From: an uncultured Gammaproteobacteria bacterium
GTDB taxonomy: Bacteria; Patescibacteriota; Microgenomatia; UBA12405
Reading direction: 5' to 3'
Assembly (NCBI GenBank): GCA_964448705.1
Contig: CAYUZS010000004.1
Coordinates: forward strand, 20,105-84,104
Length of the DNA stretch: 64,000 bases
Each line of letters begins with the position of its first letter. Positions within the stretch are counted from its first letter, which is position 1. The position numbers were made by a program, and so were the translations under genes. Shown here piece by piece: positions 12,910-33,451 of the stretch. Below the pieces are notes generated by a model. The model searched no databases. It was not told the DNA's origin and saw nothing but the letters and a program-made list of their open reading frames with translations.

Positions 12910-14034
12910 ATGAAACTTTCCTTATTACAGGAGAACCTTAGTTCTGCTTTATCATCAGTTTCTCGTTTTGTTTCTTCTAAAGCCCAACTTCCTATCTTAA
13001 ACAATATTCTTTTTATAACTGATTCTGGAAGACTTAAATTATCAGCCACTAATTTAGAATTAGGAATAAATTATTGGTTGGGAGCCAAGATAGATCAGGA
13101 AGGGAGTTTCACAATTCCTGCCAAAGAAATCACTGAGTTTGTTTCATATCTCCCTTCAGGTAAAATCGATCTCCAATTAAATCCTCAATCTCTTTTGGAA
13201 ATTAACTCCGTAAAAGCTCAATCTTCTTTTACCACTGCTGCCGCCGTTGATTTTCCGACATTACCGGTTTTAGATGATAAAACTTCATTGGAAATAGACT
13301 TAAATATTCTCACTCAGGCAATTTCTCAAATTGCTTTTTCCGCCGCCTCTGATGATTCCCGTCCCATTCTTACCGCTATTTTATGTCGATTCACTAAAGA
13401 TTCATTAAGGTTGGTTGCTACTGATGGTGTCCGGCTTTCTTTAAAAGAAATAAAATTAGTTAACCCTATTGTTATCCCGGAAGGTAAAGATGAATTAACT
13501 TTTTTAGTCCCTTCACGAAGTTTAGTTGAAATTCCTAAACTTGCTAAATCTGTTTCTAAACTAAAGTTTGGTTTAAGTACTGATAGTCACCAACTAATTT
13601 TTGTTATGGAAGATTTGGAATTAGTGTCCCGTCTAATTGAAGGTGAATTTCCAAACTATCAAAGAATTATTCCCGAAACCTTTTCCACTGTCATAAGTTT
13701 AGATAAGAATGAATTTATGCAGGCTGTAAAAATTGCCTCTGTTTTTGCCCGTGAATCAGCTAATGTTGTTAAGTTATCAATCAAAAAAACTAATATCGAG
13801 GTTTCGGCTAATGCTTCTCAAATTGGTCAAAATAAAGTTTCTGTTGATGCCAAAATTGAAGGTGATGGTTTAGAAGTTGCTTTTAACTACAAATATATTT
13901 CCGATTTTCTTTCTGTTTGTCAGAGTAATGAAATTATAATCAGGCTAAATGAACCTTTAACCCCCGGTCTTTTTCAGGACAGTGCCGATCCTCATTTCAC
14001 TCACATCATCATGCCTGTCAGAATCCAGGATTAA
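12910..14034 (+). CDS. dnaN: DNA polymerase III beta sliding clamp
   Basis: 'MKLSLLQENL...LPILNNILF' is a typical DnaN N-terminus. Track ORF 12865 is an upstream extension; M16 at 12910 is the likely start. 374 aa. Confidence 0.9.
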   Translation: MKLSLLQENLSSALSSVSRFVSSKAQLPILNNILFITDSGRLKLSATNLELGINYWLGAKIDQEGSFTIPAKEITEFVSYLPSGKIDLQLNPQSLLEINSVKAQSSFTTAAAVDFPTLPVLDDKTSLEIDLNILTQAISQIAFSAASDDSRPILTAILCRFTKDSLRLVATDGVRLSLKEIKLVNPIVIPEGKDELTFLVPSRSLVEIPKLAKSVSKLKFGLSTDSHQLIFVMEDLELVSRLIEGEFPNYQRIIPETFSTVISLDKNEFMQAVKIASVFARESANVVKLSIKKTNIEVSANASQIGQNKVSVDAKIEGDGLEVAFNYKYISDFLSVCQSNEIIIRLNEPLTPGLFQDSADPHFTHIIMPVRIQD

Positions 14035-14075
14035 TTCTTTCCTATTACTCTCTTCTTAAAATCAATTTCAATATC

Positions 14076-14480
14076 TTATTCGCTTTCTAAAGTTTCAAAC
14101 TCTAATTTATGTCCTTCTCCTAGCTCACCAAAACCGCTGAGCCAAACATTAATCTCTTTTGTTGCAGATGGTGTTGATGTTCCATCAAGTGTCACGTATA
14201 ACACTTTTGGTGCACTGTATCTTCTTACCACAAAACCATTTCCCGGATAAGGTAATCTGTCCCATAAAGGATATTTCTCTTCATTCACTTGCAGTACTGC
14301 CGGTTCAGTTGCTGTTTTTGTTGGCTCTATTGTCACGGTAGGAATTACATTTTCAACAGTTGGTGTGTATGTTTCAGTATTGTTGTTTTTCCATCCATAT
14401 TTCACTTTAACTACACTTAAAACCACAACTATCAGTGCTAAAAAAAATATAACTCTTAATCTGTATATTTCTTTAATCAT
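14076..14480 (-). CDS. membrane-anchored hypothetical protein (last gene of T4SS-like operon)
   Basis: N-terminal TM 'VIFFLALIVVVLSVV'; 4-nt overlap with the upstream gene. Confidence 0.35.
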   Translation of the reverse strand: MIKEIYRLRVIFFLALIVVVLSVVKVKYGWKNNNTETYTPTVENVIPTVTIEPTKTATEPAVLQVNEEKYPLWDRLPYPGNGFVVRRYSAPKVLYVTLDGTSTPSATKEINVWLSGFGELGEGHKLEFETLESE

Positions 14481-14884
14481 TGTACTTTCCAGTATTGACT
14501 GGTAATTAAGCCATAACCGCTATCATTTACCCATTTTTCCCAAATTACTTTATTTTCCTGGCTGTTGTTTACAATTTTCACCACGAATTTGTTAGTTTGA
14601 TAATCAAAATCTATCGAAAAATAATCATTTTTAATTGGCACCTTACTTCTTAAAATCTTTATTAATTCAATTTCATTGTATTCATTATCTGTTGGGGATA
14701 TGTAAACAGCACCGGTATCAGAAAAATAACTTTCTGATGTTTTTGTTGGGATTAAAACTTTTTCTGTTTCAATTTCTGCTGTTTTTGTTTTATTACTGCC
14801 GCCATTTAACAATAATGCCCAAACAGCAAATAAAATCACTGTTATACAGACAATAATAAGTATTATATTTTTTTTCGACATCAT
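14477..14884 (-). CDS. membrane-anchored hypothetical protein (T4SS-like operon)
   Basis: N-terminal TM 'IILIIVCITVILFAVWALLL'; 2-nt gap to the upstream 1215-aa gene. Confidence 0.35.
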   Translation of the reverse strand: MMSKKNIILIIVCITVILFAVWALLLNGGSNKTKTAEIETEKVLIPTKTSESYFSDTGAVYISPTDNEYNEIELIKILRSKVPIKNDYFSIDFDYQTNKFVVKIVNNSQENKVIWEKWVNDSGYGLITSQYWKVQ

Positions 14885-14885
14885 C

Positions 14886-17800
14886 TTATTTTATAGCGCT
14901 GGCCTCCACCGTCAAACATCCTCTTATATTATGGGCATAGCCGTAAGCTTGTGTTCCATCAAAAGGTGTTCTGATTGGATAATAAGGATCATAAGTTACT
15001 ATTTTTCCATTATTCACTGCTACACCGAGCACAAAATGTCCTCCTAAAGCTAAATTTGAATTTCTGTAATAGTCAGCTAATATCATCACTACTTTTCCTT
15101 CACAAATCCATTTCGCAATCGCTTTTTCATCACAGCCCTGAGTCACTGCGTCATACGCCACTGCTGATGATCCGAACATTTTTGCTAATTCCTGTTTGGC
15201 TTGAAGTAATGAGGATCCTTCTCCGCCCATACTGCTGTAAGCTGACCCTTGCGAGAAAATTATCACCGGTGGTTTCATTTGTCCGTTTTTAATTCTGGCC
15301 ATCATCGAAACACTGGTTGGTCCGCATCCGGCAGAACAGATTGTTCCTCCTCCGTTAAGTGGAGTGCTTCCCCATTCCGGATCACATTGTTTTGTTTCAT
15401 AAGCTTTATCTGAGACGCTGCATTCACCTTCCACTACTACTCCTGTTAATCCCGGAGCATTTGGATCAAAACTAATATTTTGATCTGTTTCTCCGTTTTC
15501 ACAAAGCCAACTATCACCATTTTCATCTACATAAGTATATGTATTATCTCCGCCTGAACTCGAAGAATTACCTATATCTCCACAATTTTGACCACCAGGT
15601 GTCACTTGAATTGAGTCTGGTAATGGTGCGCTGCTAATCCAACTCCATTGCTCTTCAATAAATCCCTTATATTGTCTTGGTGTTACTCCGGCCGGATTCA
15701 ATTTATCAGGATCACAATCTCCGTTTAAGAAATTTGCTGAAAATGCCAACCAATAATCGCCTCCGATTCTTGGATCGTTAATACAGGCACTGGCTGGATT
15801 TAGTTTTAAGAAGGCATTAATCTGTTCGTTGTAATCATTTGGTTTATTAATCGAACTCACTCCGAAGTCATCAACTTCACCGGTGGAATAATTGCTAGCT
15901 CCGGATTCATGTATCCACACCCATAGTGCGTATGTCGGATTTATCCCGGCACACAAAGCTCTGTTAACTGTATCGTTATAGCATTCTTGAGAATAATTTT
16001 TCCCGGTTTTCCATGCATTAGCTTTGCTAATAAAATTTGCTTTATCTACTCCGGCCACTGCATTTTCTGGAGCATTTTGATTACAGTTAATTTGTCCTCC
16101 ATTACTTGTCCCGGTTATTTTGACACAGCTGCCTGTTGTCCCTTTTGGAGCTACTAACGGTGACACTGTCGTCGCCGTTATCATATTTAAACCGATTATT
16201 GCTCCTAATACTGCCGGTACTACCCAGGCAACTATCAATATTGATCCTGCTCCTAAAATTGCCGGTAAACCCAAAAATACCCCAGCCAGTGTTCCTGCCC
16301 AGTGTAAAAATCCGCCAAATCCTTTTCCAAAATTATCCTGGAGCCATACTTTTGTTTTTACTGAACTTAACCCTATACTTTCTGAGAACTTTTCAAAACC
16401 TTTTTTAATTAAACTTCCAGCTTTTTTAATTACCGAAAAACCGAGCATTATTAAAGCCGTTGGTAATCCTCCGACTACTCCTGCCGCCGATAATCCTGCA
16501 GTTGCCGCTCCTTTTGCCGCCGTTGCCGCACCGGCTTTTACCGCCGTCACTGTTCCTTTTGTCGCCAGTTGTCCGATAATGTTTTTGATCCCTCCTTCAA
16601 GTCCCAAGCTGGCGATTTGTGTCGCCATTGCTCCTACCGTTTCTCCGCCAAATTTGGTTGCTAATCGTATTCCAAAATCCTTTAAAGCTTCTATGTGTAA
16701 AATATTGCCTATTTGTGTCGATATTCCTCCGATTGCTGTCGAAATCCTGTCTTGAAATTGAACAATGTTTTGCAATCTTTCCAGAGATTTAACTAATTTT
16801 GGATTTTTACTTAGGATTTTAGCTACAGAACCAAGTTGTCCTAAACTTTTTGATCCTTCAAGTTTTTCCGATATTTTATTGATTCTTTCAATATTTTCAC
16901 TGATTTTAATCGGACTTCTGACCAGATTTTTAATAATTCTTGCTTGCTCTGATACTATTTTGCTTTCAGGATATCCGTTTCTTTTTAAAACACTTTTTTC
17001 TTTATATTGGGATAAGGTTGTAGATTCTTCTTTTTCCGGAAACTGTATTTTTCTTACCAGTGCTGCCATATCTTTGGCTTCTTCTTTTATTACTCCTTTT
17101 TCAATCAATTCATCGTATATTTTTTCTTCTACCTTTTCTGCTCTATACCTATCAATGGCAATAACTTTATTTGTTCTCTCACTGGGAGATCTTTCTTTTT
17201 GTGTGTTTCCTTGAAATTCAACCTCCTTAATCATGGTGTTTTCCACCATAACTTCCCCTTTTTCTATAATTTTCTCAATAGTTGTTTTCTTGTTGTCATC
17301 AATCCCGACTATTTTTTGGATTTTTTGAACTAAACTATCCTCTTTTTCCAGTTCTACTTTTTCACTACTTTTTTCGATTTTTACAGTTGAATCATTGAGT
17401 TTAGTCTCCGGATCATCAAATTTCGCTACTACTCTTTCTTTCACCAATTCACCGATCTGTTTTGTTTTTGTTTCACTGATATTGGTTTCTGTTTTTATTT
17501 GCAGGACAATTTCTTCAGTTATTTGGGAAATTTTTTCCTCTGTATCTACTCTTGACCAGGTGTCATTAGCAATTTTGATTATCTCTTCAGAAGTATTTCT
17601 GTCATTTATTTTTTCTGATTCAATTATTTTTGAAATTTTTACACTGTTTTCTTCGATGGAGTTTTCGGTAAAGGATGTTTCTTTTATTTTTTCAGCTATT
17701 TTTTCAATTGATTCTTTGTTGATTTTGTCTCCGACATTTTGTTGTATTTTTGCCTCTGCAATCAATAGAGTATTAACTCTTTCCGATGCTTCCTTATTGA

Positions 17801-18533
17801 TTGGTTTTTCATTAAGAATCGTTTCTGTTGCAAAAGTAATTTCCTTTATTAAATCGTTGTCTTCGATTTGTGAATTCTTTAATAGCTTATTAACTTTTTC
17901 TCTTTTTGTATTTTTTTCGCCGCCTTCATCCTCAATCTCAACAATTTTTTTAAATATTTTTTCTACCTCTTTCTTGTCAGCTTCTTTGGGTTCTATTTTT
18001 TTAAACCGTTCTTTCAAAACTTCTTCCTTTTTTATCGGTGTTTTGTTTGTTTCTAGTTTTGCTTTTTCTAGTTTTTCCAGCTCAATTTTCCTTTCAATAA
18101 TTCTTTGGATATCTTCAATCCTTACCCGTCTTAAGAGTAGATTATTTTTGATTAATTCCTCCGCTTTAATAATTTCCTTTTCTAAATCATGTTTATCTAA
18201 TTCTTCAAGGAGTGTTTTTAAGTCTTGTTGGTTTAATGCCCGGCTTTCTAATTTTTGACCTTTTATCTCTGCCTCATCAATCTTCTCTTTTATCTCCAAG
18301 TCTTCAATAATTGAACTCAGTTTTACAGATTCTGATTCTAATAATCGGTTATAGATTTCGTTTACATTAAGTGGATTAAATTCATTTACAATTCCTTGTT
18401 CTTCGTACCATTTTCTTATTATTCTGGAGAGATTAGGGTTATCGTTTAAGGTTTTTCCATTCTTTATCAGTTCCTTAAGACTTCCAAACAGCCTTACGTT
18501 TAATTTTTCTAATTCGGCATCTGTTATTTCCAT
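14886..18533 (-). CDS. 1215-aa T4SS-associated multidomain protein: K/E-rich coiled-coil N-region, Gly/Ala-rich polytopic TM core (VirB6/TrbL-like by architecture), Cys-rich ectodomain, C-terminal C39_2-like papain-fold peptidase/cell-wall hydrolase domain
   Basis: 'GCGPTSVSMMAR' aligns to the 'GCEVTSLAM' catalytic-Cys region of C39_2/YvpB-type peptidases; 'GGHFVLGVAVNNGKIVTYDPY' aligns to the His block. Multiple hydrophobic Gly/Ala helices in the centre. Confidence 0.5.
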   Translation of the reverse strand: MEITDAELEKLNVRLFGSLKELIKNGKTLNDNPNLSRIIRKWYEEQGIVNEFNPLNVNEIYNRLLESESVKLSSIIEDLEIKEKIDEAEIKGQKLESRALNQQDLKTLLEELDKHDLEKEIIKAEELIKNNLLLRRVRIEDIQRIIERKIELEKLEKAKLETNKTPIKKEEVLKERFKKIEPKEADKKEVEKIFKKIVEIEDEGGEKNTKREKVNKLLKNSQIEDNDLIKEITFATETILNEKPINKEASERVNTLLIAEAKIQQNVGDKINKESIEKIAEKIKETSFTENSIEENSVKISKIIESEKINDRNTSEEIIKIANDTWSRVDTEEKISQITEEIVLQIKTETNISETKTKQIGELVKERVVAKFDDPETKLNDSTVKIEKSSEKVELEKEDSLVQKIQKIVGIDDNKKTTIEKIIEKGEVMVENTMIKEVEFQGNTQKERSPSERTNKVIAIDRYRAEKVEEKIYDELIEKGVIKEEAKDMAALVRKIQFPEKEESTTLSQYKEKSVLKRNGYPESKIVSEQARIIKNLVRSPIKISENIERINKISEKLEGSKSLGQLGSVAKILSKNPKLVKSLERLQNIVQFQDRISTAIGGISTQIGNILHIEALKDFGIRLATKFGGETVGAMATQIASLGLEGGIKNIIGQLATKGTVTAVKAGAATAAKGAATAGLSAAGVVGGLPTALIMLGFSVIKKAGSLIKKGFEKFSESIGLSSVKTKVWLQDNFGKGFGGFLHWAGTLAGVFLGLPAILGAGSILIVAWVVPAVLGAIIGLNMITATTVSPLVAPKGTTGSCVKITGTSNGGQINCNQNAPENAVAGVDKANFISKANAWKTGKNYSQECYNDTVNRALCAGINPTYALWVWIHESGASNYSTGEVDDFGVSSINKPNDYNEQINAFLKLNPASACINDPRIGGDYWLAFSANFLNGDCDPDKLNPAGVTPRQYKGFIEEQWSWISSAPLPDSIQVTPGGQNCGDIGNSSSSGGDNTYTYVDENGDSWLCENGETDQNISFDPNAPGLTGVVVEGECSVSDKAYETKQCDPEWGSTPLNGGGTICSAGCGPTSVSMMARIKNGQMKPPVIIFSQGSAYSSMGGEGSSLLQAKQELAKMFGSSAVAYDAVTQGCDEKAIAKWICEGKVVMILADYYRNSNLALGGHFVLGVAVNNGKIVTYDPYYPIRTPFDGTQAYGYAHNIRGCLTVEASAIK

Positions 18534-18555: not shown

Positions 18556-21009
18556 CTAGACTATTCCGTTACCGAAAAGCTTGTCGTAATCCATTTTTGT
18601 TTTTTGATTTTCCTCACTTTTATCGGGAACATTTTCAGTTGTCGGTTGAGGACTTTGTGTTTTTTCAAAGACCGGGTTAGTTTTTTTTGATAACTGCGGT
18701 GGCTGTGGTATTTTAACTTCCTCGGTTTTGTTTATAAACAAAGGTTTATTGTTTTGATTATTATTGGACACTGTTTCCACTTTTAATGGTTCAAATTTCG
18801 GTAATGGGGGCAGCTTTCCGCTGTTATTAATAAACAAATCTTTATACTTCGGTAATCCTCCTTGTGGATTGCTGTTTACTTCTGGAATCTTTTGTTTTTC
18901 TAATTCCTCTTTTTGCTGACGTTCGTGTTCCATAATCTTTGCTTTCTCCATTTCTTCCATTTCCGCTATTCGTTTTTGAATATTTGCTTCAGGGCTGGGT
19001 GCCGCTTTCTCTTCCACAATTTCCTCACTTAATTTTAATTCATTTTTAATATTTTCTTCTTCTACCACCTTCTCTTTTTCCGGTGGTTTTGTCTCGATTA
19101 ATGGGGTTTCTTTTATTACTTCCGTTGGTATTTTTTCCTGAGTTTCCTCAATTTTTGGAACATTTACCACCGCTGCCGTTTCAAAAACTTTTTTCTGTTG
19201 TTTCATTTTTAATATTTCTTCCGGATTAGAAGTGATCAGTTTATGTTCATCTTCAGATGCAACTACCCGAATAGCCACGTGATTTTGTCCTGCAAAAAAT
19301 ATTCCCTCACCTTTATCTGCTGCCAATAACAATTGTTTTTCTCCTTCTGATAGATAAAACACTTGTCCGACCTGATCTATGGCTGCACTATGTTGTTTCA
19401 GTAATATTTGAATTGCGCTGTTAGTCACAATTTCTTTTCCGTATGGAGTCTGTAGAAAATCATCTACATCCTGAGTGATTGTTGTTACTCCCAAATAATA
19501 TTTTCTTCCTCTTTTTACAATTCCTCTTAAAAAGGCTGCCGAGTCATCGTATTGCATTAAATACCAAGCTTCATCGACTACCAATATTCTCTTTTTTAAT
19601 TCTTTTTTAACTACTGTCCAAATGTAGTCCAGGATAATATGCATTGCCACAGGTCTCAATGTCTCTTCCAAATTTCTGATTCCGAAAACCACAAATTGAT
19701 TGTTTAAATTCACCGTTGTTTTTTGGTTAAATATTCCCGCAAAAGATCCTTTAATATATTTCTCCAACCTTGCTGCAATTCCGGCTGCTTTTTGATCTTC
19801 CATTCCTATCAATGATTTATATAAATCTTCAATAAGTGGTGGTTCTTTGTTTTGTGTCTCCGGATCGGGAGTTATCCCTTTCATTTTGTAAGCATCAACA
19901 ATCGCTCTGTCTAAAATAGATTCTTCGATTGGATCCATTTCGCCCAGCATTACTTTAAAAAGTTTGTGTAAAGTTAATACTTTGGAATTTAAAGCATTTT
20001 CTCCCTCATCGACCACCAACGATAAATCGAAAGGATTAATTTTCGATTCCTCTCCGTAGCCAAAAGCAATATATTGTCCGCCTACTGCTTCAGCCAAGTC
20101 TTTATATTCGTTTTCCGGATCAATAACTATAATTTCCGTTCCCATCATCAACGATCGTAAAACTTCCAGTTTAATCAAGTATGACTTTCCTGCACCCGCA
20201 GTGGCAAACACCACAGAATTGTAGTTTTGCATGGAAAATCGGTCAAAAATAATCAATGAACCGTTATGTTCATTTATTCCGTACATAATTCCTTTATCAT
20301 CGGATAGGTCAGAGGATACAAATGGGAAAGTCGTCGCTAAAGAAGTTGTGTCCATGTTCCTGGTCAGATTCAACTTGTCTAAACATAAAGGAAGAGTGGT
20401 AATAAAAGCATCTTCTGATTGATAGTTGGTTCTTTTTGTTAACACCATCAACGCCCCCATCGCCGACTCCAGGTTTTTAGTTATTTTGTCAAGATCGTCT
20501 TTTGTATCTGCCGACAAAGTCATATACAGTCCCATTTGAAAAAATCTTTCCTCACCTTTTACTAAATCTGCCTGTAAGTTCAAAGCATCCTCAAGCTTAG
20601 CCTGAGTTGCCGGATTCACAATTCTTCCTCGTTGAATATCAGTTGTTAATTCTGCCTCCATTTCGGTAATTTTTCTTCTTAAATCGTCTAGAATTTCTTT
20701 CCCGTCGGAAGGGTAAATGTACATGGATATAGTTTGAGAAGCATCAAAATTAATCAATGAAGACAGCCAGTTTATTTCCACAAAACGTCTGTTGATCACC
20801 GTAAACATTGTTCTGTAATACTTATTACCGATTTTTATAAAATCTGTATCTACCTCCAAAGCTCCTGGTGCAATAATGTCTTTTGTTGAAACTAAACCTT
20901 CCACAAAATTTCTTTCATTACTTTTTTTATTCTCTTGTGTCGTTGTTGGTGTTTGGTTTTCTGTTTCGACTTTCTTGCCTTGTCCAAACAGCTTTTTAAA
21001 ATCCATCAT
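18556..21009 (-). CDS. VirB4/TraC/CagE-family type IV secretion ATPase (Gram-positive type)
   Basis: N-terminal 'YYRTMFTVINRRFVEINWLSSL' (YPR..GWL-type block); Walker A-like 'ATAGAGKSY'; Walker B 'ILVVDEAWYLM'. The C-terminal roughly 200 aa are a P/K/E-rich low-complexity extension. Confidence 0.85.
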   Translation of the reverse strand: MMDFKKLFGQGKKVETENQTPTTTQENKKSNERNFVEGLVSTKDIIAPGALEVDTDFIKIGNKYYRTMFTVINRRFVEINWLSSLINFDASQTISMYIYPSDGKEILDDLRRKITEMEAELTTDIQRGRIVNPATQAKLEDALNLQADLVKGEERFFQMGLYMTLSADTKDDLDKITKNLESAMGALMVLTKRTNYQSEDAFITTLPLCLDKLNLTRNMDTTSLATTFPFVSSDLSDDKGIMYGINEHNGSLIIFDRFSMQNYNSVVFATAGAGKSYLIKLEVLRSLMMGTEIIVIDPENEYKDLAEAVGGQYIAFGYGEESKINPFDLSLVVDEGENALNSKVLTLHKLFKVMLGEMDPIEESILDRAIVDAYKMKGITPDPETQNKEPPLIEDLYKSLIGMEDQKAAGIAARLEKYIKGSFAGIFNQKTTVNLNNQFVVFGIRNLEETLRPVAMHIILDYIWTVVKKELKKRILVVDEAWYLMQYDDSAAFLRGIVKRGRKYYLGVTTITQDVDDFLQTPYGKEIVTNSAIQILLKQHSAAIDQVGQVFYLSEGEKQLLLAADKGEGIFFAGQNHVAIRVVASEDEHKLITSNPEEILKMKQQKKVFETAAVVNVPKIEETQEKIPTEVIKETPLIETKPPEKEKVVEEENIKNELKLSEEIVEEKAAPSPEANIQKRIAEMEEMEKAKIMEHERQQKEELEKQKIPEVNSNPQGGLPKYKDLFINNSGKLPPLPKFEPLKVETVSNNNQNNKPLFINKTEEVKIPQPPQLSKKTNPVFEKTQSPQPTTENVPDKSEENQKTKMDYDKLFGNGIV

Positions 21010-21734
21010 AGTTTTGCTGTTGAACTTGTATCTTTGGTAGTCACCATTGGAGAGTCATAGTTAAGAGTTTGTATCTTTTGATTAGGTTCAGTATCTTCGT
21101 TGTATATTTTGTAGAACAATTCGATTAATTCTTTAGTGTTTAAAGCTCTGATCTCCAAACCTAGTCTCGAGAATAACCGGCTTAGATGATCTTTTTTGGG
21201 TTCCAAACTGGCTTTTGCTTTTTCCAATATATAATCTTTGGAAAAGGGTAGTTCTTTTACTGTTTTTTGTGGCATAAAAGGTAATCCCCCCAATACTTGT
21301 GAAGACATACTTTTTATTCCAAGTTCTAATACTGAAAACGGAATCACCATATAAAAAGATTTTGAAAGGACATCGTTTCTCTTGACGGTTTCTTCTATAA
21401 ATTTACGATAGAAAGATATTCTGTCTTTAAGCAGGGGATTGCTTTGGTTTTCTTCAAGCTTTCTTAAATTATTTAGATAAATGCTTACATCTTTTGTACT
21501 TGAAGATATTACAATTTGGATAGGAAAATTAAGAGAATTTAATATTCCTCCATAGGCAAAAACTAAAGCACTTTGCTCCCTTTCTGAAAGTAAGTCGAAA
21601 TTTACCGAAGAAATTTGTAAAACAGCCGCACACGATCCGTCTTTTAATATCACTGTTCCGTCGATAATGTCCTCAATCGGCAGATGCTCTTGAGTACTTC
21701 CTTTAATTGCTATTTTTAATGGATCAATTGCCAT
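21006..21734 (-). CDS. hypothetical T4SS-operon protein, translationally coupled to virB4-like gene
   Basis: 4-nt overlap with the virB4-like start; no motif assignable with confidence. Confidence 0.3.
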   Translation of the reverse strand: MAIDPLKIAIKGSTQEHLPIEDIIDGTVILKDGSCAAVLQISSVNFDLLSEREQSALVFAYGGILNSLNFPIQIVISSSTKDVSIYLNNLRKLEENQSNPLLKDRISFYRKFIEETVKRNDVLSKSFYMVIPFSVLELGIKSMSSQVLGGLPFMPQKTVKELPFSKDYILEKAKASLEPKKDHLSRLFSRLGLEIRALNTKELIELFYKIYNEDTEPNQKIQTLNYDSPMVTTKDTSSTAKL

Positions 21735-21756: not shown

Positions 21757-22677
21757 TTAAGTAATCGCTTTAATTTTAATTGGTTCTACTATTTTACCGG
21801 TTAAATTAACATTAATTCTATCGAATTTATACTGTTCTTTTTCTGTAATCACCAAATAGTTTCCATCAGCCATCGGAGTAGTAGTTTTAAATTGCCCTAA
21901 AGAATTGGTTTTTAACACTCTGCTTGGGTTTCCTTTTTCATCTTGAATTTCAATTATTGCTCCCTCAACGATTTTTCCTTCACTGTCTGTTACCATTCCT
22001 ACTACAATGTTTGGAATATCCGGTTTGTCAGGCATTGGTATTTGTCCAAAAACAGTTTTTCCCGTCGCACTCAATTTTTCTGTTTTCAAGTTTAAGTTAA
22101 CCGCTTTATCTTGCCAATTTTCACTGTCGCTCTTTTCATTTAACAATGGTGTTTTTTCTTTTATCGGTTCATCCTGTTGGCTTATTTTAGTCTCTTTAAT
22201 AACCTGCAATTCCTCTTTTTTCTTCTCGGCCAATTCTGTTTCCCGACTCATTTTTACACTCGGTAAAGATTCGATGAACTCTTTTACTTTTTCCTTGTTT
22301 TTAATTGGCAGCGATTCAGTTTCTTCATCTAAAATAACATCATTTACTTTGCTTTTGCTCATGATTAAGTTAATCCAGTCGCTGTCGGGCATTTTCTTGT
22401 AGGTATAGATTGTTGGTGAATAGATCGATTTAATAAAAGACCTTATCCATAAATCTAATGGTCTGTCCTGAAAGGGGACAAAGGCTAACAATAGTCCGCC
22501 GCCGCCGCAAATAATCATTAATGGCCATTTTAAAAAGAAAATTAAATGAGAAGCATTAATTAATAACGCCAGCACAATACCCACCGCCGCTTTCAAAAAT
22601 TGTTTTAATGTCATGTCTCCCACCAGCTTAAACTCATACGAGCTTATCTGTTGAGGAATTGCATGTTGTTCCATCAC
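21757..22677 (-). CDS. membrane protein with C-terminal CarboxypepD_reg-like beta-sandwich domain (first gene of T4SS-like operon)
   Basis: Two N-terminal TM helices. C-terminal 'VGMVTDSEGKIVEGAIIEIQDEKGNPSRVLKTNSLGQFKTTTPMADGNYLVITEKEQY' fits the CarboxypepD_reg/PEGA-type pattern (G.V.D..G.P..gA.V.....G.....Td.nG.F.....p.G.Y). Confidence 0.4.
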   Translation of the reverse strand: MMEQHAIPQQISSYEFKLVGDMTLKQFLKAAVGIVLALLINASHLIFFLKWPLMIICGGGGLLLAFVPFQDRPLDLWIRSFIKSIYSPTIYTYKKMPDSDWINLIMSKSKVNDVILDEETESLPIKNKEKVKEFIESLPSVKMSRETELAEKKKEELQVIKETKISQQDEPIKEKTPLLNEKSDSENWQDKAVNLNLKTEKLSATGKTVFGQIPMPDKPDIPNIVVGMVTDSEGKIVEGAIIEIQDEKGNPSRVLKTNSLGQFKTTTPMADGNYLVITEKEQYKFDRINVNLTGKIVEPIKIKAIT

Positions 22678-30013: not shown

Positions 30014-31369
30014 ATGTCTTCCTCCATCAAGTCCTGCAGTTTTTATGTTTCGGGTACCCACTGTCGTTCCTGTGAACTGCTCATTGAAAAAGAAATCTCC
30101 CACCTTCCGGGTATAATTTCCGTCTCCGCTTCCACTAAAAATAAAAAAGTTGTTATTAAATATCAAAAACAACAGCCGAGTCTTACTCTTTTAAATAAAT
30201 TATTCAAAGATAACCAATATGTTTTTAGTCATGATGGCACTGTATCTGAAGTTAAAATCAATCCCTTTTACAGTTTTTTAATTGCTTTTGGTTTTATTGC
30301 TATATTCTATTTTTTACAAAAAGAAAATTTTTTATCTTCTTTCCAGATTAGTAAATCTTCTTTTTCTCCCGCCTTTTTTATTTTCGGTCTTTTAGCCGGT
30401 TTTTCTACCTGCGCCGCTCTGGTAGGTGGTCTCGTTTTGTCGCTTTCCCGTCAATGGAACCGTCTCTCTTCTTCTTCTGATTCTCTTTTTCATCGGCTTC
30501 AGCCGGTTTTAGCATTTAATTTGGGCCGTTTATTTTCTTTTACGGTTTTGGGTGCTCTTTTAGGCTATTTTGGTAGTTTTTTTCAACTTTCCCTTACTAC
30601 CGGAGCAGTTATCACGATTTTAGTTTCAGTTTTAATGTTGGTTTTAGGATTACAGATGATTGGTGTTAAAGCTTTAGACTCTTTTCAATTAGCCCTCCCA
30701 AAATCTTTTACCGGTAAACTGGTTGATGAAACCCGTTTTCATGGCCGTTTTGTCCCTTTTATTCTTGGCGGTTTAACGTTCTTTCTGCCTTGCGGTTTCA
30801 CCCTAACCTCTCAGTCACTGGCTCTGGCTTCAAGTAATCCCATTCAGGGAGCACTGATTATGTTTTTCTTTTCTCTGGGTACTTTTCTACCTTTATTGTT
30901 AATTGGTCTTGGCAGTGTCAAGTTCTTTTCTAATCAGGTTTCTTCTAAATATTTTTCTCAGGTTGCCGGGATCTTGGTCATTTTTTTTGCTTTGTTTAAT
31001 TTCAAATCTCAGCTGATTGTTTTAGGATTCTTTGATACTCAAAAACCTCTAACTGTAAATTCTCAATCAGCTGTTTCCTTGGCTCCTGTTGTCAATGGTA
31101 AATATGTTTTGAAAATGGAAGCCTCTTCTACCGGGTATACCCCAAACACTTTTAAAGTAAAGGCTAATCAACCGATTCGTTGGGAAATTACTGATCGTGG
31201 CACCTCTGGTTGCACTAACGCGGTCATTTCCCGTTCTCTTTTTACCGGATCAATTCAATTAACTCCCGGAATTGTTTCGGTTAAAGAATTTATTTCTCCG
31301 GCAGATCCTGGAATTTATCGCTTTTCATGTTGGATGGGGATGATTTCCGGCACTATTGAGGTTATTTAA
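30014..31369 (+). CDS. heavy-metal-associated (HMA) domain + polytopic permease + C-terminal cupredoxin-like domain; putative Cu/Zn efflux/handling membrane protein
   Basis: N-terminal 'GTHCRSCELL' CxxC HMA motif; about 8 TM helices with Cys-containing helices; C-terminal beta domain 'IYRFSCWMGMISGTIEV'. Overlaps the copA start (TAAATG). Confidence 0.45.
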   Translation: MSSSIKSCSFYVSGTHCRSCELLIEKEISHLPGIISVSASTKNKKVVIKYQKQQPSLTLLNKLFKDNQYVFSHDGTVSEVKINPFYSFLIAFGFIAIFYFLQKENFLSSFQISKSSFSPAFFIFGLLAGFSTCAALVGGLVLSLSRQWNRLSSSSDSLFHRLQPVLAFNLGRLFSFTVLGALLGYFGSFFQLSLTTGAVITILVSVLMLVLGLQMIGVKALDSFQLALPKSFTGKLVDETRFHGRFVPFILGGLTFFLPCGFTLTSQSLALASSNPIQGALIMFFFSLGTFLPLLLIGLGSVKFFSNQVSSKYFSQVAGILVIFFALFNFKSQLIVLGFFDTQKPLTVNSQSAVSLAPVVNGKYVLKMEASSTGYTPNTFKVKANQPIRWEITDRGTSGCTNAVISRSLFTGSIQLTPGIVSVKEFISPADPGIYRFSCWMGMISGTIEVI

Positions 31370-33451
31370 ATGGCTATCCAAGTTGAAAAAATAAATATTT
31401 CGGGCATGCATTGCACTTCGTGTGCTCTTCTTGTTAAGAAATCATTGTCATCAGTCCCCGGTGTTATCGATGTTTCGGTTAACTATGCCGCTAAAAAAGC
31501 TGTCGTTAAATTCGACTCTTCTTTTTCCGCTCTTGATGATCTCCAGTCTGCTGTTGTTTCTGCCGGTTATCGTATTAATTATAAAAAAATAGATGACGCA
31601 GCTGAAAGCTTAGTTTGGCGTCAAAAGTTTTTCCTCTCGTTAATTCTCACTTTACCTCTCTTTATTTCCATGGTTATCCCTTTTTCTAATATTTTTTGGA
31701 TTGCCTTAATTCTTACTACTCTCAATTTGATTTTTGTCGGTCGGAACTTTTTTCTGGGTTTTATTTCTGCTCTTAGGTTAAGAACTTTTACTATGGATAA
31801 CCTTATTGCTATTGGCACATCGTCTGCTTTTGTTTTTAGTCTTCTTATGAACTCATATCACTATTTTGAAGTCGCTTCTTCTTTGATTACTTTTGTCACT
31901 TTAGGTAAGTGGTTAGAAAGTTTAGCTAAAGCAAAAACTTCACAGGCTGTCAGTAAATTAATTGATCTGAGTCCTAAAACTGTTCATTTAAAAACATCGT
32001 CAGGTTTTTCTGATGTATCTCTGGAATCAATCAAATCAGGCGATATTCTTTTAGTTAAGCCAGGTGAAACCATTCCTCTCGATGGTTTAATCATCAAAGG
32101 CCGGTCGTCTGTCGACCAATCATCTCTTACTGGTGAAAGTATGCCTATCGATAAAGTATTCGGTGACAAAGTTTTTGCCGGTACTCAAAATACTACCGGT
32201 TCCTTTGAGTTTAGAACTACCGTAGATAGCCAGAACACTCTTCTTTCTCAAATTGTTAAATTAGTAGAAGAAGCTCAATCAACCCAATCACCTTTACAAA
32301 ATTTGGCCGACAAAATATCTGCCGTTTTTGTCCCCCTTGTTCTGCTTATTGCTGTCATCACTTTCATTGTTTGGCGTTTTGGTTTTGCTGCCTCATGGGA
32401 GAATACTATAACCCATTTCTTGGCTGTTATTGTTATCGCTTGTCCTTGTGCACTTGGTTTGGCTACTCCAACTGTAATCATGGTCGCGACTGGTTTGGCA
32501 GCTAAACTGGGAATTTTAGTAAAAGGCGGTGATGCACTCCAGATGGCAGCCGCTGTTGATACCTTTGTTTTTGATAAAACCGGAACTTTAACGATTGGTC
32601 GTCCGACGATTACTGCTTTTAAGAATCTAAGTAGTTTTCCCGACTCAAAAATATTCTCACTAATTTATTCTTTAGAAATAACTTCCGAGCATCCCATCGC
32701 CAAAGCGTTTGTTGATTTTGTCGCTTCTAAAAAACCCAAAAAAATAAAACTTACAGATTTTAAATCGATAACCGGGTTTGGTGTTCAAGCCAGGGGAGGC
32801 AAATCTCTGTATTTTTTGGGCAAGTCACAAGATGGTCTTATAGAATTACGTCAGGATAAAAAAACTTTAGCTTCATTCATTGCCAAAGATATTCTTAAAC
32901 CGGAGAGTGTTTCTGTAATCAAATCTCTTACGGATTCTGGTTTGGGAGTTTATTTAGTAACCGGTGATCATTCTTCAAATGCTCTTGCTGTTGCCGCCAA
33001 ATTAGGTATTCCTTCAAAACACGTCTTTTCGGACACTCTTCCGGACCAAAAAACTACTATTATTAAACAGCTTCAATCACAAAAACACTTAGTTTCTTTT
33101 GTTGGTGATGGCATTAACGATTCTCCGTCCCTGGCTCAGTCTGATCTTGGTATTGCTATGGGTAATGGTACGGATATAGCCATTGAATCCGGTAATGTCG
33201 TCATAATGAACAATAATTTAAACAGTCTATTAGCTTTGCGTCAATTAAGTCAAAAAACTTACAGTAAGATTAACCAGAATTTCTTTTACGCTTTAATTTA
33301 TAATCTGGTCTTTATTCCTGTGGCTGCAGGTCTTCTTGCTCCTTTTAATATCACTCTCCGTCCGGAATTTGCGGCCTTAGCCATGAGTCTCTCATCCGTT
33401 TCTGTTGTTCTGAATTCTTTATCCCTTAATCGTTTTAGGTCCTCACGTTAA
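31370..33451 (+). CDS. copA: copper-translocating P1B-type ATPase
   Basis: HMA 'GMHCTSCAL'; TM 'ACPCALGLATP' (CPC); phosphorylation site 'DKTGTLT'; hinge 'VGDGINDSP'; 693 aa. Confidence 0.9.
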   Translation: MAIQVEKINISGMHCTSCALLVKKSLSSVPGVIDVSVNYAAKKAVVKFDSSFSALDDLQSAVVSAGYRINYKKIDDAAESLVWRQKFFLSLILTLPLFISMVIPFSNIFWIALILTTLNLIFVGRNFFLGFISALRLRTFTMDNLIAIGTSSAFVFSLLMNSYHYFEVASSLITFVTLGKWLESLAKAKTSQAVSKLIDLSPKTVHLKTSSGFSDVSLESIKSGDILLVKPGETIPLDGLIIKGRSSVDQSSLTGESMPIDKVFGDKVFAGTQNTTGSFEFRTTVDSQNTLLSQIVKLVEEAQSTQSPLQNLADKISAVFVPLVLLIAVITFIVWRFGFAASWENTITHFLAVIVIACPCALGLATPTVIMVATGLAAKLGILVKGGDALQMAAAVDTFVFDKTGTLTIGRPTITAFKNLSSFPDSKIFSLIYSLEITSEHPIAKAFVDFVASKKPKKIKLTDFKSITGFGVQARGGKSLYFLGKSQDGLIELRQDKKTLASFIAKDILKPESVSVIKSLTDSGLGVYLVTGDHSSNALAVAAKLGIPSKHVFSDTLPDQKTTIIKQLQSQKHLVSFVGDGINDSPSLAQSDLGIAMGNGTDIAIESGNVVIMNNNLNSLLALRQLSQKTYSKINQNFFYALIYNLVFIPVAAGLLAPFNITLRPEFAALAMSLSSVSVVLNSLSLNRFRSSR

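What the first reader, a model, noticed from the sequence alone, without database searches (positions are those of the whole stretch)
14886..18533. 1215-aa protein fusing coiled-coil, polytopic Gly/Ala-rich core, Cys-rich ectodomain and C39_2-like peptidase
The N-terminal roughly 550 aa are K/E/I-rich coiled-coil. The centre carries several very hydrophobic Gly/Ala helices in a VirB6/TrbL-like organisation. Beyond that lies a region with more than 15 Cys, then a domain whose catalytic dyad blocks match C39_2/YvpB-type papain-fold enzymes: 'GCGPTSVSMM' ~ 'GCEVTSLAM' and 'GGHFVLGVAV..YDPY'. One polypeptide carrying both a T4SS channel component and a cell-wall hydrolase is an unusual architecture; it is reminiscent of PrgK/TcpG-type hydrolases but fused to the membrane core.
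Basis: partly seen in the sequence, partly recalled or inferred. Interest (0 to 1): 0.55.

Follow-up and report, generated by a model that had tools for sequence, protein, structure and literature searches.

The report
Membrane-anchored cell-wall cutter of a type IV secretion system
This 1215-residue protein, from an ultra-small "candidate phyla radiation" bacterium, most likely cuts a hole in a cell wall for the type IV secretion machine encoded next to it, and its last enzyme module is swapped between species together with the neighbouring gene.

Summary
The ORF is real: 14886-18533, minus strand, 1215 aa. It lies in a conserved, origin-proximal type IV secretion (T4SS) operon of a Candidatus Shapirobacteria-type genome. 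Gene order is PrgI/VirB3-like, TrsD-like, VirB4, this gene, then small membrane-anchored proteins, then dnaN and dnaA.

**C-terminal peptidase.** The fold is C39_2/papain-like, C1070, H1166 and D1182 are invariant, and the closest orthologue passes Pfam's threshold.

**VirB6/TrbL idea.** This is not supported. There are three transmembrane helices, no TrbL signal in 46 homologues, and no profile similarity to PrgH, TrsL or Orf15. The N-terminal "coiled-coil" was also not shown.

- The "Cys-rich region" is a conserved, unannotated helical domain with a lysozyme-like predicted fold. Its Glu876 is near-invariant (99% of 201 copies). The domain recurs in other T4SS loci of this bacterial group.
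- Among orthologues the C-terminal peptidase is replaced by CHAP or M23 modules. The first downstream gene changes with it in 20 of 22 loci, across at least three switches.

**Best reading:** a PrgK/TraG-type (VirB1-class) two-enzyme peptidoglycan hydrolase, anchored N-in/C-out. It is a new variant of a known kind, of moderate interest. The cassette behaviour leaves open a host-wall-attacking enzyme with a cognate inhibitor.

The parts
14886..18533 (-). Whole ORF, 1215 aa plus stop: the membrane-anchored T4SS-associated hydrolase.
   Evidence: ORF listing. There are 66 homologues of about 1000-1130 aa, mostly Candidatus Shapirobacteria. The protein is a singleton cluster with no public name.
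16734..18533 (-). Residues 1-600: K/E/I-rich N-terminal region with no Cys and no signal peptide. Inferred to be cytoplasmic.
   Evidence: Composition. No Pfam, NCBIfam, PHROGs or PDB hit. No heptad signal above shuffles. Only islands of conservation.
16143..16733 (-). Residues 601-797: Gly/Ala-rich amphipathic stretch plus three transmembrane helices. TM1 is 679-703 (nt 16425-16499), TM2 is 741-763 (nt 16245-16313), TM3 is 766-790 (nt 16164-16238).
   Evidence: Hydropathy. AF2 helices H151-181, H198-224 and H227-248 of the 540-830 fragment, mean pLDDT only 60.5. No TrbL match.
15582..16094 (-). Residues 814-984: conserved all-helical 'CEN' domain with a predicted lysozyme-like fold. Candidate catalytic Glu876 (nt 15906-15908) and Asp889 (nt 15867-15869).
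   Evidence: AF2 pLDDT is mostly 85-93. Foldseek hits 8yxk_A, a GH73 glucosaminidase domain (E 6e-3, target TM-score 0.55), and a g-type lysozyme more weakly. Phage lysozymes and endolysins appear in BFVD. E876, S880, D889, G891 and Q904 are each 99% conserved over 201 domain copies. 369 representatives at E<=1e-3.
15435..15581 (-). Residues 985-1033: low-confidence linker ending in the conserved DPNAPGLTG junction, where the orthologues' C-terminal modules diverge.
   Evidence: pLDDT below 50 for fragment residues 191-234. Shared homology with M23- and CHAP-type orthologues ends at fragment residues about 218-247. Nearly invariant D229, P230, N231, P233, G234, L235 and G237.
14889..15434 (-). 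Residues 1034-1215: C39_2-like papain-fold cysteine peptidase. Cys1070 is nt 15324-15326, His1166 is nt 15036-15038, Asp1182 is nt 14988-14990.
   Evidence: Pfam PF13529 at E 0.007; the orthologue P0001 scores 30.9 bits, above the cut-off of 24. Invariant C, H and D. Foldseek hits 3erv (E 8e-4), staphopains, PCAT1 and Pei endoisopeptidases.
14477..14884 (-). d1: a 135-aa membrane-anchored protein whose family co-varies with the C39-type hydrolase module. Candidate cognate partner or inhibitor.
   Evidence: BLASTP against the d1 of other C39-type loci gives E 1e-24 to 1e-27. It is present in 8 of 10 C39-type loci and in none of 12 M23-type loci. No Pfam or PDB hit.
14076..14480 (-). d2: a 134-aa membrane-anchored protein conserved in all locus types.
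   Evidence: Homologous to the d2 of C39-, M23- and CHAP-type loci, E 1e-13 to 1e-21. Found in 23 loci.
18556..21009 (-). VirB4-like ATPase, CD1110 family, directly upstream.
   Evidence: NCBIfam NF045971 at 388 bits against a cut-off of 325. Pfam P-loop_TraG at 2.2e-29.
21006..21734 (-). TrsD/TraD-like protein, 242 aa.
   Evidence: BLASTP against pSK41 TrsD gives E 1.4e-9 over 208 aa. Orthologues carry PF26593.
21757..22677 (-). PrgI/VirB3-like membrane protein with a C-terminal CarboxypepD_reg domain.
   Evidence: Pfam PrgI at E 1.1e-4 (below cut-off) and CarboxypepD_reg at 4.4e-7. Two hydrophobic helices at 22-70.

Best explanation
The protein is the cell-wall hydrolase subunit (VirB1 class, PrgK/TraG/TrsG type) of a chromosomal, origin-proximal, Gram-positive-like T4SS in a Candidatus Shapirobacteria-type bacterium (Microgenomatia, Patescibacteria/CPR).

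**Proposed layout.**
- A Cys-free, highly charged N-terminal region of about 600-680 residues stays in the cytoplasm, next to the VirB4 ATPase.
- Three transmembrane helices anchor the protein in the membrane.
- The last roughly 410 residues are displayed outside the cell.

**Proposed action.** The external part carries two enzymes. The first is a previously unannotated lysozyme-like domain with a near-invariant Glu876 at the end of a helix; it would cut the glycan strands. The second is a C39_2-like cysteine peptidase (Cys1070/His1166/Asp1182); it would cut the peptide stems or cross-links. The 14 non-catalytic cysteines could form about seven disulfides that stabilise this part. Together the two enzymes would open a local gap in peptidoglycan so that the secretion apparatus can span a wall. 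That wall may be the cell's own or that of a host cell.

**Cassette.** The peptidase module is exchangeable. Across species it is replaced by CHAP or M23 modules together with the next gene (d1). That gene probably encodes a module-specific binding partner, either an inhibitor or a docking factor.

**Shown here:** gene context, domain boundaries, predicted folds, conserved residues, module swapping and co-variation.
**Inferred:** topology, enzymatic activities, substrates and the role of d1.
For: **Context.**
- The gene sits in a PrgI-like / TrsD-like / VirB4 (CD1110 family) / this gene / small bitopic proteins / dnaN-dnaA arrangement.
- The same order occurs in the complete Shapirobacteria loci examined.
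- pCF10 has prgI-prgJ(VirB4)-prgK(hydrolase)-prgL. pSK41 has trsC-trsD-trsE(VirB4)-trsF-trsG(hydrolase)-trsH.
- PrgK has a 245-aa N-terminus, one TM, then lysozyme and CHAP domains.

**Peptidase.**
- AF2 model with good confidence for residues 1034-1215.
- Foldseek top hits are a C39-like peptidase (3erv), staphopains, the PCAT1 C39 domain and Pei endoisopeptidases.
- C1070, H1166 and D1182 are invariant.
- 23 of 46 homologues match PF13529, with a best E-value of 8e-8.
- In the other orthologues the same position holds M23 (15) or CHAP (7), both established peptidoglycan-hydrolase families.
- Peptidase_C39_2 is catalogued as a catalytic domain of phage lysins (10.1101/2021.02.23.432618; PMC10541714).

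**Central domain.**
- Confident helical model with GH73-like and lysozyme-like fold hits.
- Glu876 ends helix 866-877 and is 99% conserved over 201 copies.

**Outside location.**
- All 15 Cys lie after residue 802.
- Across 60 homologues there are on average 1.5 Cys before the ectodomain and 13.7 after it.
- The same domain follows N-terminal signal anchors in many other Cys-rich proteins.
- A DsbA-like and a DsbD-like gene are in the window.

**T4SS link of the domain.** In other Microgenomates it is encoded beside arrays of T4SS pilin genes.

**Literature.** Patescibacterial T4SSs are MPF-FATA-like, lie near dnaA and lack a relaxase. VirB1 and VirB6 homologues were hard to find near virB4 in Microgenomatia (PMC12102498).
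Against: - No sequence-level homology links the central domain to any lysozyme, SLT or GH73 family. Pfam and PDB profile searches were empty. hhalign against PrgK, goose lysozyme, FlgJ and TrsG gave probabilities of 3% or less.
- The glycosidase assignment therefore rests on one Foldseek hit at E 6e-3, weaker hits, and a conserved Glu.
- The window protein's own C39_2 score is below Pfam's cut-off.
- Topology was not predicted with a dedicated tool. The TM1-TM2 loop of this protein has a net charge of +5, which fits an outside position poorly. The family mean is only +0.6.
- Nothing explains why a wall hydrolase needs a 600-residue cytoplasmic region and three TM helices.
- No enzymatic activity has been shown for any member of this family.
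Confidence: 0.6

Rival explanations
1. The membrane core is the VirB6-type translocon of this T4SS, fused to its VirB1-type hydrolase. One polypeptide then does the work of Tn916 Orf15 plus Orf14, or ICEBs1 ConG plus CwlT.
For: - It is the only protein with more than two TM helices in the conserved operon.
- In Tn916 the genes after VirB4 are a 725-aa polytopic membrane protein and then a 'bifunctional lysozyme/C40 peptidase'. That is the same order as the domains here.
- VirB6 homologues are reported as scarce in Microgenomatia (PMC12102498).
- None of the 120 listed homologues of the Microgenomates polytopic family lies on the known large Shapirobacteria contigs. This is only a weak hint.
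Against: - No TrbL/VirB6 Pfam signal in this protein or the 46 homologues, whereas PrgH scores 9.9e-7.
- Three TM helices, against four to six for Gram-positive VirB6 homologues (PMC12857230). Orf15, PrgH and TrsL show 4-5 or more hydrophobic blocks.
- hhalign probability is below 1% against PrgH, TrsL and Orf15.
- No similarity to the conserved ~570-aa polytopic family that accompanies this domain in other Microgenomates.
- In locus L043 a similarly built protein coexists with that polytopic protein.
Confidence: 0.2
2. The protein is a polymorphic, contact-dependent weapon. The conserved body presents a variable C-terminal wall-degrading module to the host or prey cell. The co-varying downstream gene d1 encodes the cognate immunity or inhibitor protein that protects the producer.
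For: - The C-terminal module type is patchy on trees of the conserved part and of VirB4+TrsD, with at least three switches.
- d1 switches with it: C39 with the ~130-aa family in 8 of 10 loci, and M23 with the ~310-aa family in 12 of 12, with no cross-combination.
- d2 and d3 stay constant.
- Both d1 families have N-terminal membrane anchors, so they are exposed on the same side as the enzyme.
- The nearest structural relatives include staphopains, whose inhibitor genes lie directly downstream (for the fold; the gene arrangement is from general knowledge).
- Cultivated Patescibacteria are epibionts, and their T4SS is essential for growth on hosts (PMC10633639).
Against: - The enzyme is not released by any recognisable mechanism. 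It is anchored by three TM helices.
- d1 of the C39 and CHAP types is a distant paralogue of the constant component d2. That fits a structural partner, such as a VirB8-like docking factor, as well as an immunity protein.
- VirB8 homologues are known to bind VirB1 homologues (PMC12857230).
- There are no orphan module/immunity cassettes downstream, which polymorphic toxin loci often have.
- No d1 homologue has a known function.
Confidence: 0.15
3. The protein is a C39-family leader-peptide protease, as the public name 'C39 family peptidase' suggests. It would process double-glycine bacteriocin or signal peptides, or other secreted proteins, rather than the wall.
For: - Fold similarity to the PCAT1 C39 domain (E 0.07-0.16).
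- NCBI names two orthologues 'C39 family peptidase'.
Against: - There is no ABC-transporter domain in the protein and none adjacent to it.
- The module is replaced by M23 or CHAP in orthologues.
- It is preceded by a lysozyme-like domain.
- Closer fold hits are the C39_2-type 3erv and staphopains.
Confidence: 0.03
4. The protein is a prophage tape-measure or tail-tip lysin. Such proteins combine a long helical region, hydrophobic Gly-rich segments and C-terminal lysozyme and peptidase domains.
For: - The general layout resembles tape-measure or tail lysins.
- PrgK is itself auto-annotated 'phage tail tip lysozyme'.
Against: - No PHROGs hit.
- No phage genes nearby; the neighbours are T4SS and housekeeping genes.
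- The locus is fixed next to dnaN and dnaA across many species.
Confidence: 0.02

Closest known systems
PrgK of Enterococcus faecalis plasmid pCF10 (VirB1-class multidomain peptidoglycan hydrolase)
   Same: - The gene lies immediately after a CD1110-family VirB4 and before small bitopic proteins.
- It has a cytoplasmic N-terminal region, then a membrane anchor, then an extracellular glycosidase, then a C-terminal Cys/His peptidase.
   Different: - No detectable sequence similarity.
- PrgK has one TM helix and a 245-aa N-terminus, against three helices and about 680 aa here.
- PrgK uses Phage_lysozyme2 plus CHAP, and LytM according to the literature. This protein uses an unannotated lysozyme-like domain plus C39_2.
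- PrgK has one Cys; this ectodomain has 15.
TraG (pIP501) / TrsG (pSK41): TM anchor + SLT + CHAP
   Same: - The operon has the same backbone: TrsC/PrgI, TrsD, VirB4..., hydrolase, small TrsH-like protein.
- From the last TM helix onward the protein is collinear with TrsG: anchor, a helix ending in Glu-Ser, then a Cys peptidase. This alignment is non-significant.
   Different: - hhalign probability is only 2%.
- TrsG is 358 aa with an N-terminal anchor and no cytoplasmic domain.
- In pSK41 a separate membrane protein, TrsF, lies between VirB4 and the hydrolase.
Tn916 Orf15 + Orf14 (ICEBs1 ConG + CwlT): VirB6-like membrane protein followed by a bifunctional lysozyme/peptidase
   Same: The gene order after VirB4 (membrane protein, then lysozyme + peptidase) equals the domain order of this single protein.
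   Different: - They are two genes, not one.
- Orf15 has five or more hydrophobic blocks starting at its N-terminus.
- The peptidase is C40 (NlpC/P60).
- No sequence similarity.
Peptidase_C39_2 family (PF13529; e.g. B. anthracis 3erv, B. subtilis YvpB) and staphopains
   Same: - Papain-like fold with the catalytic Cys in a G-C-G-P-T-S helix start and the His in a G-H-x-V strand, followed by D-P-Y.
- Orthologues pass the Pfam threshold.
   Different: - This sequence scores 17.4 bits, below the cut-off of 24.
- It carries five extra conserved Cys.
- It is the terminal module of a 1215-aa membrane protein rather than a small secreted enzyme.
Patescibacterial T4SS as described by Quinonero-Coronel et al. 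2025 (PMC12102498) and Wang et al. 2023 (PMC10633639)
   Same: - MPF-FATA-like VirB4 with PrgI and TrsD near dnaA and dnaN.
- No relaxase or coupling protein among the window ORFs scanned.
- In Southlakia, peptidase and lysozyme homologues just downstream of virB4 are essential.
   Different: - Those studies report that VirB1 homologues are mostly not associated with virB4, and that VirB6 is scarce in Microgenomatia.
- In the papers I read, I did not find this protein family, its central domain, or the module/d1 cassette exchange described.

Membership tests
Peptidase_C39_2 (Pfam PF13529) | Match to the family HMM above the gathering score | tested here: inconclusive
   The window protein scores 17.4 bits, E 0.007, below the cut-off of 24. 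The orthologue P0001, 70% identical over residues 795-1215, scores 30.9 bits. 23 of 46 homologues match at E<=0.01.
Peptidase_C39_2 (Pfam PF13529) | Papain-like alpha/beta fold closest to solved C39-like enzymes | tested here: met
   AF2 pLDDT is mostly 84-95 for residues 1034-1215. The Foldseek top hit is 3erv (E 8e-4, probability 1.00), followed by staphopains and PCAT1.
Peptidase_C39_2 (Pfam PF13529) | Conserved catalytic Cys and His (plus a third polar residue) | tested here: met
   C1070, H1166, D1182 and Q1049 are invariant in 25 and in 17 aligned orthologues. Catalysis itself is not testable here.
VirB6 / TrbL (Pfam PF04610; PrgH, TrsL, Orf15/ConG) | Match to the TrbL/VirB6 profile or to known Gram-positive VirB6 proteins | tested here: not met
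   No TrbL hit in this protein at E<=1, nor in 46 homologues at E<=0.01. PrgH scores 9.9e-7 in the same test. hhalign probability is below 1% against PrgH, TrsL and Orf15.
VirB6 / TrbL (Pfam PF04610; PrgH, TrsL, Orf15/ConG) | Polytopic membrane protein with four to six or more TM helices (PMC12857230) | tested here: not met
   Three strongly hydrophobic helices, plus a weakly hydrophobic Gly/Ala helix of low model confidence. No dedicated topology predictor was available.
VirB6 / TrbL (Pfam PF04610; PrgH, TrsL, Orf15/ConG) | Encoded in the T4SS operon next to virB3/virB4 | tested here: met
   It lies directly downstream of VirB4 in the window and in every related locus that retains the upstream sequence.
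VirB1-class Gram-positive T4SS hydrolase (PrgK/TraG/TrsG) | Membrane-anchored with extracellular enzymatic domain(s) (PMC12857230) | tested here: inconclusive
   An odd number of TM helices follows a charged, Cys-free N-terminus. All 15 Cys lie after the last helix. The same domain sits behind signal anchors in other proteins. Topology is inferred, not predicted with a dedicated tool or measured.
VirB1-class Gram-positive T4SS hydrolase (PrgK/TraG/TrsG) | Glycan-cleaving domain (SLT, muramidase or lysozyme-like) | tested here: inconclusive
   Fold-level hits only: 8yxk_A GH73 at E 6e-3 with target TM-score 0.55, and g-type lysozyme at E 0.43. The Glu is near-invariant (99% of 201 copies). No sequence-profile support.
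VirB1-class Gram-positive T4SS hydrolase (PrgK/TraG/TrsG) | Cys/His or metallo-endopeptidase domain at the C-terminus | tested here: met
   C39_2-like here. CHAP in 7 and M23 in 15 of 46 homologues at the same position.
VirB1-class Gram-positive T4SS hydrolase (PrgK/TraG/TrsG) | Gene position downstream of virB4 in an MPF-FATA-type operon | tested here: met
   Same position as prgK in pCF10. It corresponds to trsF plus trsG in pSK41. TrsD homology gives E 1.4e-9.
VirB1-class Gram-positive T4SS hydrolase (PrgK/TraG/TrsG) | Peptidoglycan-degrading activity required for T4SS function | not testable with these tools
   Needs biochemistry and genetics. No cultivated Shapirobacteria are known to me.
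GH73 / lysozyme-like superfamily (central domain) | Catalytic Glu at the C-terminal end of a helix, followed by a flexible loop or hairpin lobe | tested here: met
   The helix at 866-877 ends at E876-S877. The next 25 residues drop to pLDDT 51-73. E876 is 99% and D889 is 99% conserved. A non-significant hhalign alignment places HESGAS on FlgJ's LESGWG.
GH73 / lysozyme-like superfamily (central domain) | Sequence-profile match to a curated glycosidase family | tested here: not met
   No Pfam family for this region in 46 homologues or in 10 distant relatives. No PDB profile hit.

The most novel reading that the evidence does not exclude
The T4SS of these ultra-small bacteria may carry a polymorphic wall-breaching head. 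The conserved membrane-anchored body would present an exchangeable peptidoglycan-cutting module (C39_2, CHAP or M23) matched to the wall chemistry of the host cell it attaches to. The co-transferred downstream gene would encode its cognate membrane-anchored inhibitor, which protects the producer. On this reading the protein is less a housekeeping 'VirB1' than a host-range determinant of an episymbiont, built on toxin-immunity logic. Its three-helix membrane core might additionally stand in for the VirB6 that has not been found in this lineage.
Probability: 0.15. Interest if true: 0.8.

Novelty: new variant of a known kind. Interest (0 to 1): 0.55.

Why it matters
Patescibacteria (CPR) make up a large share of uncultivated bacterial diversity. 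In the one genetically tractable member, the T4SS is essential for growth on a host (PMC10633639).

The 2025 survey of their T4SSs could not place VirB1 near virB4 in most classes. It also found VirB6 scarce in Microgenomatia (PMC12102498).

This protein family supplies a concrete VirB1-type candidate. It also defines an unannotated, probably glycan-cleaving domain with 369 cluster representatives. That domain marks T4SS loci across Microgenomates.

The exchange of the peptidase module together with the next gene gives a testable handle on two questions:
- whether the enzyme acts on the cell's own wall or on the host's;
- what determines host range.

If the membrane core proved to be the translocon, it would be a new minimal solution for a T4SS channel.

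Tried and rejected
**Searches that found nothing.**
- Sequence searches of the whole protein and of each domain profile against PDB chains. The hits were only chance or coiled-coil matches.
- NCBIfam and PHROGs on the protein.
- d1 families against Pfam and PDB.

**Profile comparisons (hhalign).**
- The FlgJ and TrsG alignments put the conserved Glu on the known catalytic Glu-Ser motifs. They are not statistically supported, so I use them only as hints.
- The membrane region against PrgH, TrsL, Orf15, TrsF, and the Microgenomates polytopic family showed nothing.

**Structure of the membrane region.** AF2 on residues 540-830 gave pLDDT 60.5 and pTM 0.32. Its Foldseek search returned three meaningless hits.

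**Homologue search with residues 430-800.** It returned nothing. The likely cause is that low-complexity words swamped the candidate list.

**Whether Shapirobacteria carry the ~570-aa polytopic family.** The homologue search gave 450 unnamed hits and no taxonomic resolution, so this stays open.

**My first count of hydrophobic segments across the family** (the counter) double-counted overlapping windows and is not used.

**Rejected readings.**
- Prophage tail lysin, rejected on context.
- Bacteriocin-processing C39 protease, rejected because there is no ABC transporter and the module is replaced by M23 or CHAP.

Full report
**1. What is there**

The ORF exists exactly as stated: window 14886-18533, minus strand, ATG start, 1215 aa. 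It begins 22 nt after the stop of the upstream gene, and the next gene starts 1 nt after its own stop, so it is part of a tight operon.

- Residues 1-560 are E 17.3%, K 15.0% and I 12.7%.
- Residues 640-810 are G 17% and A 14%. They hold three strongly hydrophobic segments, at about 679-703, 741-763 and 766-790.
- There are exactly 15 cysteines, all at or after residue 803.

**2. Where it sits**

The window is a chromosomal origin region with rnpA, yidC, jag, dnaA and dnaN. On the other side of dnaN lies a minus-strand operon:
- a PrgI/VirB3-like membrane protein with a CarboxypepD_reg domain (21757-22677);
- a 242-aa protein homologous to TrsD of pSK41 (BLASTP E 1.4e-9);
- a VirB4 ATPase of the CD1110 family (388 bits against a cut-off of 325);
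- the 1215-aa gene;
- two small proteins with N-terminal membrane anchors.

No relaxase, coupling protein, VirB6 or pilin array turned up among the window ORFs I scanned.

The 66 homologues found are 1000-1130 aa, and those with names are Candidatus Shapirobacteria. The same gene order recurs in the related loci I examined that were not cut by a contig end.

This matches the published picture of Patescibacterial T4SSs. They are derived from the monoderm MPF-FATA class, lie near dnaA and dnaN, and lack a relaxase. That survey also reports VirB6 as 'scarce' in Microgenomatia and VirB1 homologues as mostly not associated with virB4 (PMC12102498).

**3. The C-terminal domain (residues about 1034-1215)**

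- The Pfam match of this sequence to Peptidase_C39_2 is sub-threshold (E 0.007, 17.4 bits against 24).
- The closest orthologue scores 30.9 bits, and 23 of 46 homologues match.
- An AlphaFold2 model of residues 795-1215, built with 25 sequences, has mean pLDDT 77.7. The C-terminal domain is mostly at 84-95.
- Foldseek against the PDB puts a C39-like peptidase from B. anthracis first (3erv, E 8e-4). Staphopains, pseudomurein endoisopeptidases and the PCAT1 C39 domain follow.
- Cys1070, His1166, Asp1182 and Gln1049 are invariant in the C39-type orthologues.

**4. The 'Cys-rich ectodomain' is a domain in its own right (residues about 814-984)**

- It is modelled confidently as an all-helical domain.
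- Its best structural match is the GH73 glucosaminidase domain of a C. difficile endolysin (8yxk_A, E 6e-3, target-normalised TM-score 0.55). A goose-type lysozyme matches more weakly.
- Phage 'lysozyme' and 'endolysin' models appear among the viral hits.
- A profile of the domain finds 369 cluster representatives at E<=1e-3 among 1.84 billion proteins.
- Over 201 domain copies, W873, E876, S880, D889, G891 and Q904 are each 99% conserved.
- Glu876 is the last turn of helix 866-877, and a less confident loop follows it. This is the arrangement typical of lysozyme-like enzymes (general knowledge).
- No Pfam family and no PDB sequence profile recognises the domain. hhalign against PrgK, goose lysozyme, FlgJ and TrsG is not significant.

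I therefore call it lysozyme-like at fold level only.

**5. The domain is tied to T4SS loci beyond this family**

In other Microgenomates (Collierbacteria, Woesebacteria and unnamed MAGs) the domain forms the C-terminus of signal-anchored, Cys-rich proteins. These are encoded directly after arrays of T4SS_pilin genes and before a conserved ~570-aa polytopic membrane protein.

**6. Membrane region and N-terminus**

- The AlphaFold2 model of residues 540-830 is poor (pLDDT 60.5). It shows only helices, and three of them coincide with the hydrophobic segments. Its fold search is empty.
- Neither this protein nor any of 46 homologues matches TrbL/VirB6, whereas PrgH does in the same test.
- Profile comparison with PrgH, TrsL, Tn916 Orf15 and the Microgenomates polytopic family gives nothing.
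- The N-terminal region has no detectable relatives outside the family. It also shows no heptad signal above shuffled controls in a crude test.

The case for N-in/C-out rests on four points:
- There is no signal peptide, and the N-terminus is highly charged and Cys-free.
- There is an odd number of hydrophobic helices.
- Across 60 homologues, a mean of 1.5 Cys precede the ectodomain and 13.7 lie in it.
- The same ectodomain follows signal anchors elsewhere.

A DsbA-like and a DsbD-like gene in the window fit extracytoplasmic disulfide formation. One point counts against: the TM1-TM2 loop has a net charge of +5 in this protein, although the family mean is +0.6.

**7. Module exchange**

Homology between orthologues stops at a conserved DPxxPG junction near residue 1030. 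Beyond it:
- Local typing of 63 tails gave 25 C39, 30 M23 and 8 CHAP.
- Pfam on 46 members gave 23, 15 and 7 respectively.
- The types are interspersed on a neighbour-joining tree of the shared region, and also on an independent VirB4+TrsD tree. This implies at least three switches.

The first downstream gene changes with the module:
- A ~130-aa family accompanies C39 in 8 of 10 species-representative loci, and in the window.
- A ~310-aa family accompanies M23 in 12 of 12 loci.
- A 149-aa paralogue accompanies the single CHAP locus seen.
- There are no cross-combinations.
- The next genes (d2, d3) are constant.

Both d1 families carry N-terminal anchors and have no known relatives. The exchanged unit is therefore the enzyme module plus d1. 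This points to a physical, module-specific partnership, either as inhibitor or immunity protein or as docking factor.

**8. Comparison with known systems**

| System | Gene order | Notes |
|---|---|---|
| pCF10 | prgH (VirB6), prgI, prgJ (VirB4), prgK, prgL | PrgK has a 245-aa N-terminus, one TM helix, then Phage_lysozyme2 and CHAP |
| pSK41 | trsC, trsD, trsE (VirB4), trsF (membrane), trsG (anchor + CHAP), trsH | |
| Tn916 | VirB4, Orf15 (polytopic, 725 aa), Orf14 | Orf14 is a 'bifunctional lysozyme/C40 peptidase' |

By position and by layout, the protein is the counterpart of PrgK/TraG/TrsG, that is the VirB1 class. By domain order it also mirrors Orf15 plus Orf14. Peptidase_C39_2 is listed among the catalytic domains of phage lysins (10.1101/2021.02.23.432618; PMC10541714).

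**9. Most likely mechanism**

Shown:
- operon membership;
- the four-part architecture;
- the predicted folds;
- the conserved catalytic-type residues;
- the module swapping with d1 co-variation.

Inferred:
- The N-terminus is cytoplasmic and may contact VirB4 or TrsD.
- Three helices anchor the protein.
- The external glycosidase-like and peptidase domains cut glycan strands and peptide links. This opens peptidoglycan locally for the T4SS.
- d1 binds the peptidase module.

Whether the wall attacked is the cell's own or a host's cannot be decided here.

**10. Verdict**

The protein is a new variant of a known kind. It includes a previously unannotated T4SS-associated domain family and a cassette-exchange pattern. 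In the papers I read, I did not find either described (PMC12102498, PMC12857230, PMC10633639).

Noticed in passing
L046:2544-9299, L050:2068-9711, L044:4638-9330, L041:424-4055: Other Microgenomates carry a conserved module. It consists of an array of up to 7-8 T4SS_pilin genes, then a signal-anchored Cys-rich protein ending in the same central domain, then a ~560-577-aa polytopic membrane protein. That last protein belongs to a family of 450 homologues with no Pfam match. It is a candidate for the 'missing' divergent VirB6 of Microgenomatia.
   Followed up: partly
window 33627-34436 (-), 30014-31369 (+), 31370-33451 (+): A DsbA-like thioredoxin with an N-terminal anchor lies near a DsbD/CcdA-like membrane protein fused to HMA and cupredoxin domains, and near a copper-type P-type ATPase. 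This fits extracytoplasmic disulfide formation in this organism.
   Followed up: partly
window 21757-22677 (-): The PrgI/VirB3-like protein is about 300 aa rather than about 120 aa. It carries a C-terminal CarboxypepD_reg (Ig-like) domain, and this is conserved in all related loci.
   Followed up: no
window 18556-21009 (-), residues about 590-817 of VirB4: After its ATPase domain, the VirB4 has a roughly 230-residue K/E/P/Q/N-rich low-complexity C-terminal tail. The orthologues vary in length from 763 to 1073 aa.
   Followed up: no
L017, L018, L021, L028, L035, L039 (record titles): Several public MAGs carrying this Shapirobacteria-type locus, with its full synteny, are labelled Gammaproteobacteria or Candidatus Methanoperedens. 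These are probably taxonomic mislabels.
   Followed up: no
window 1-64000; switch near 45614/45635: GC skew is clearly negative from 1 to about 46 kb and near zero or positive afterwards. The switch coincides with a divergent gene pair, not with dnaA at 11.2 kb. It may simply follow coding strand.
   Followed up: no
window 14034-14076 compared with L001:14132-14407: A third small conserved gene (d3, about 91 aa) follows d2 in many related loci. It is absent from the window, where d2 abuts dnaN.
   Followed up: partly
L043:3552-8110: A MAG labelled Saccharibacteria encodes a 1040-aa protein with a long N-terminus, two hydrophobic helices and the same central domain. It lies directly after a member of the polytopic family. 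Its architecture is similar to that of the window protein, but the N-termini show no detectable similarity.
   Followed up: no
window 59094-61232 (-): A 712-aa protein combines AAA_11/AAA_12 helicase domains with a C-terminal REase_MTES_1575/DUF559 endonuclease domain.
   Followed up: no
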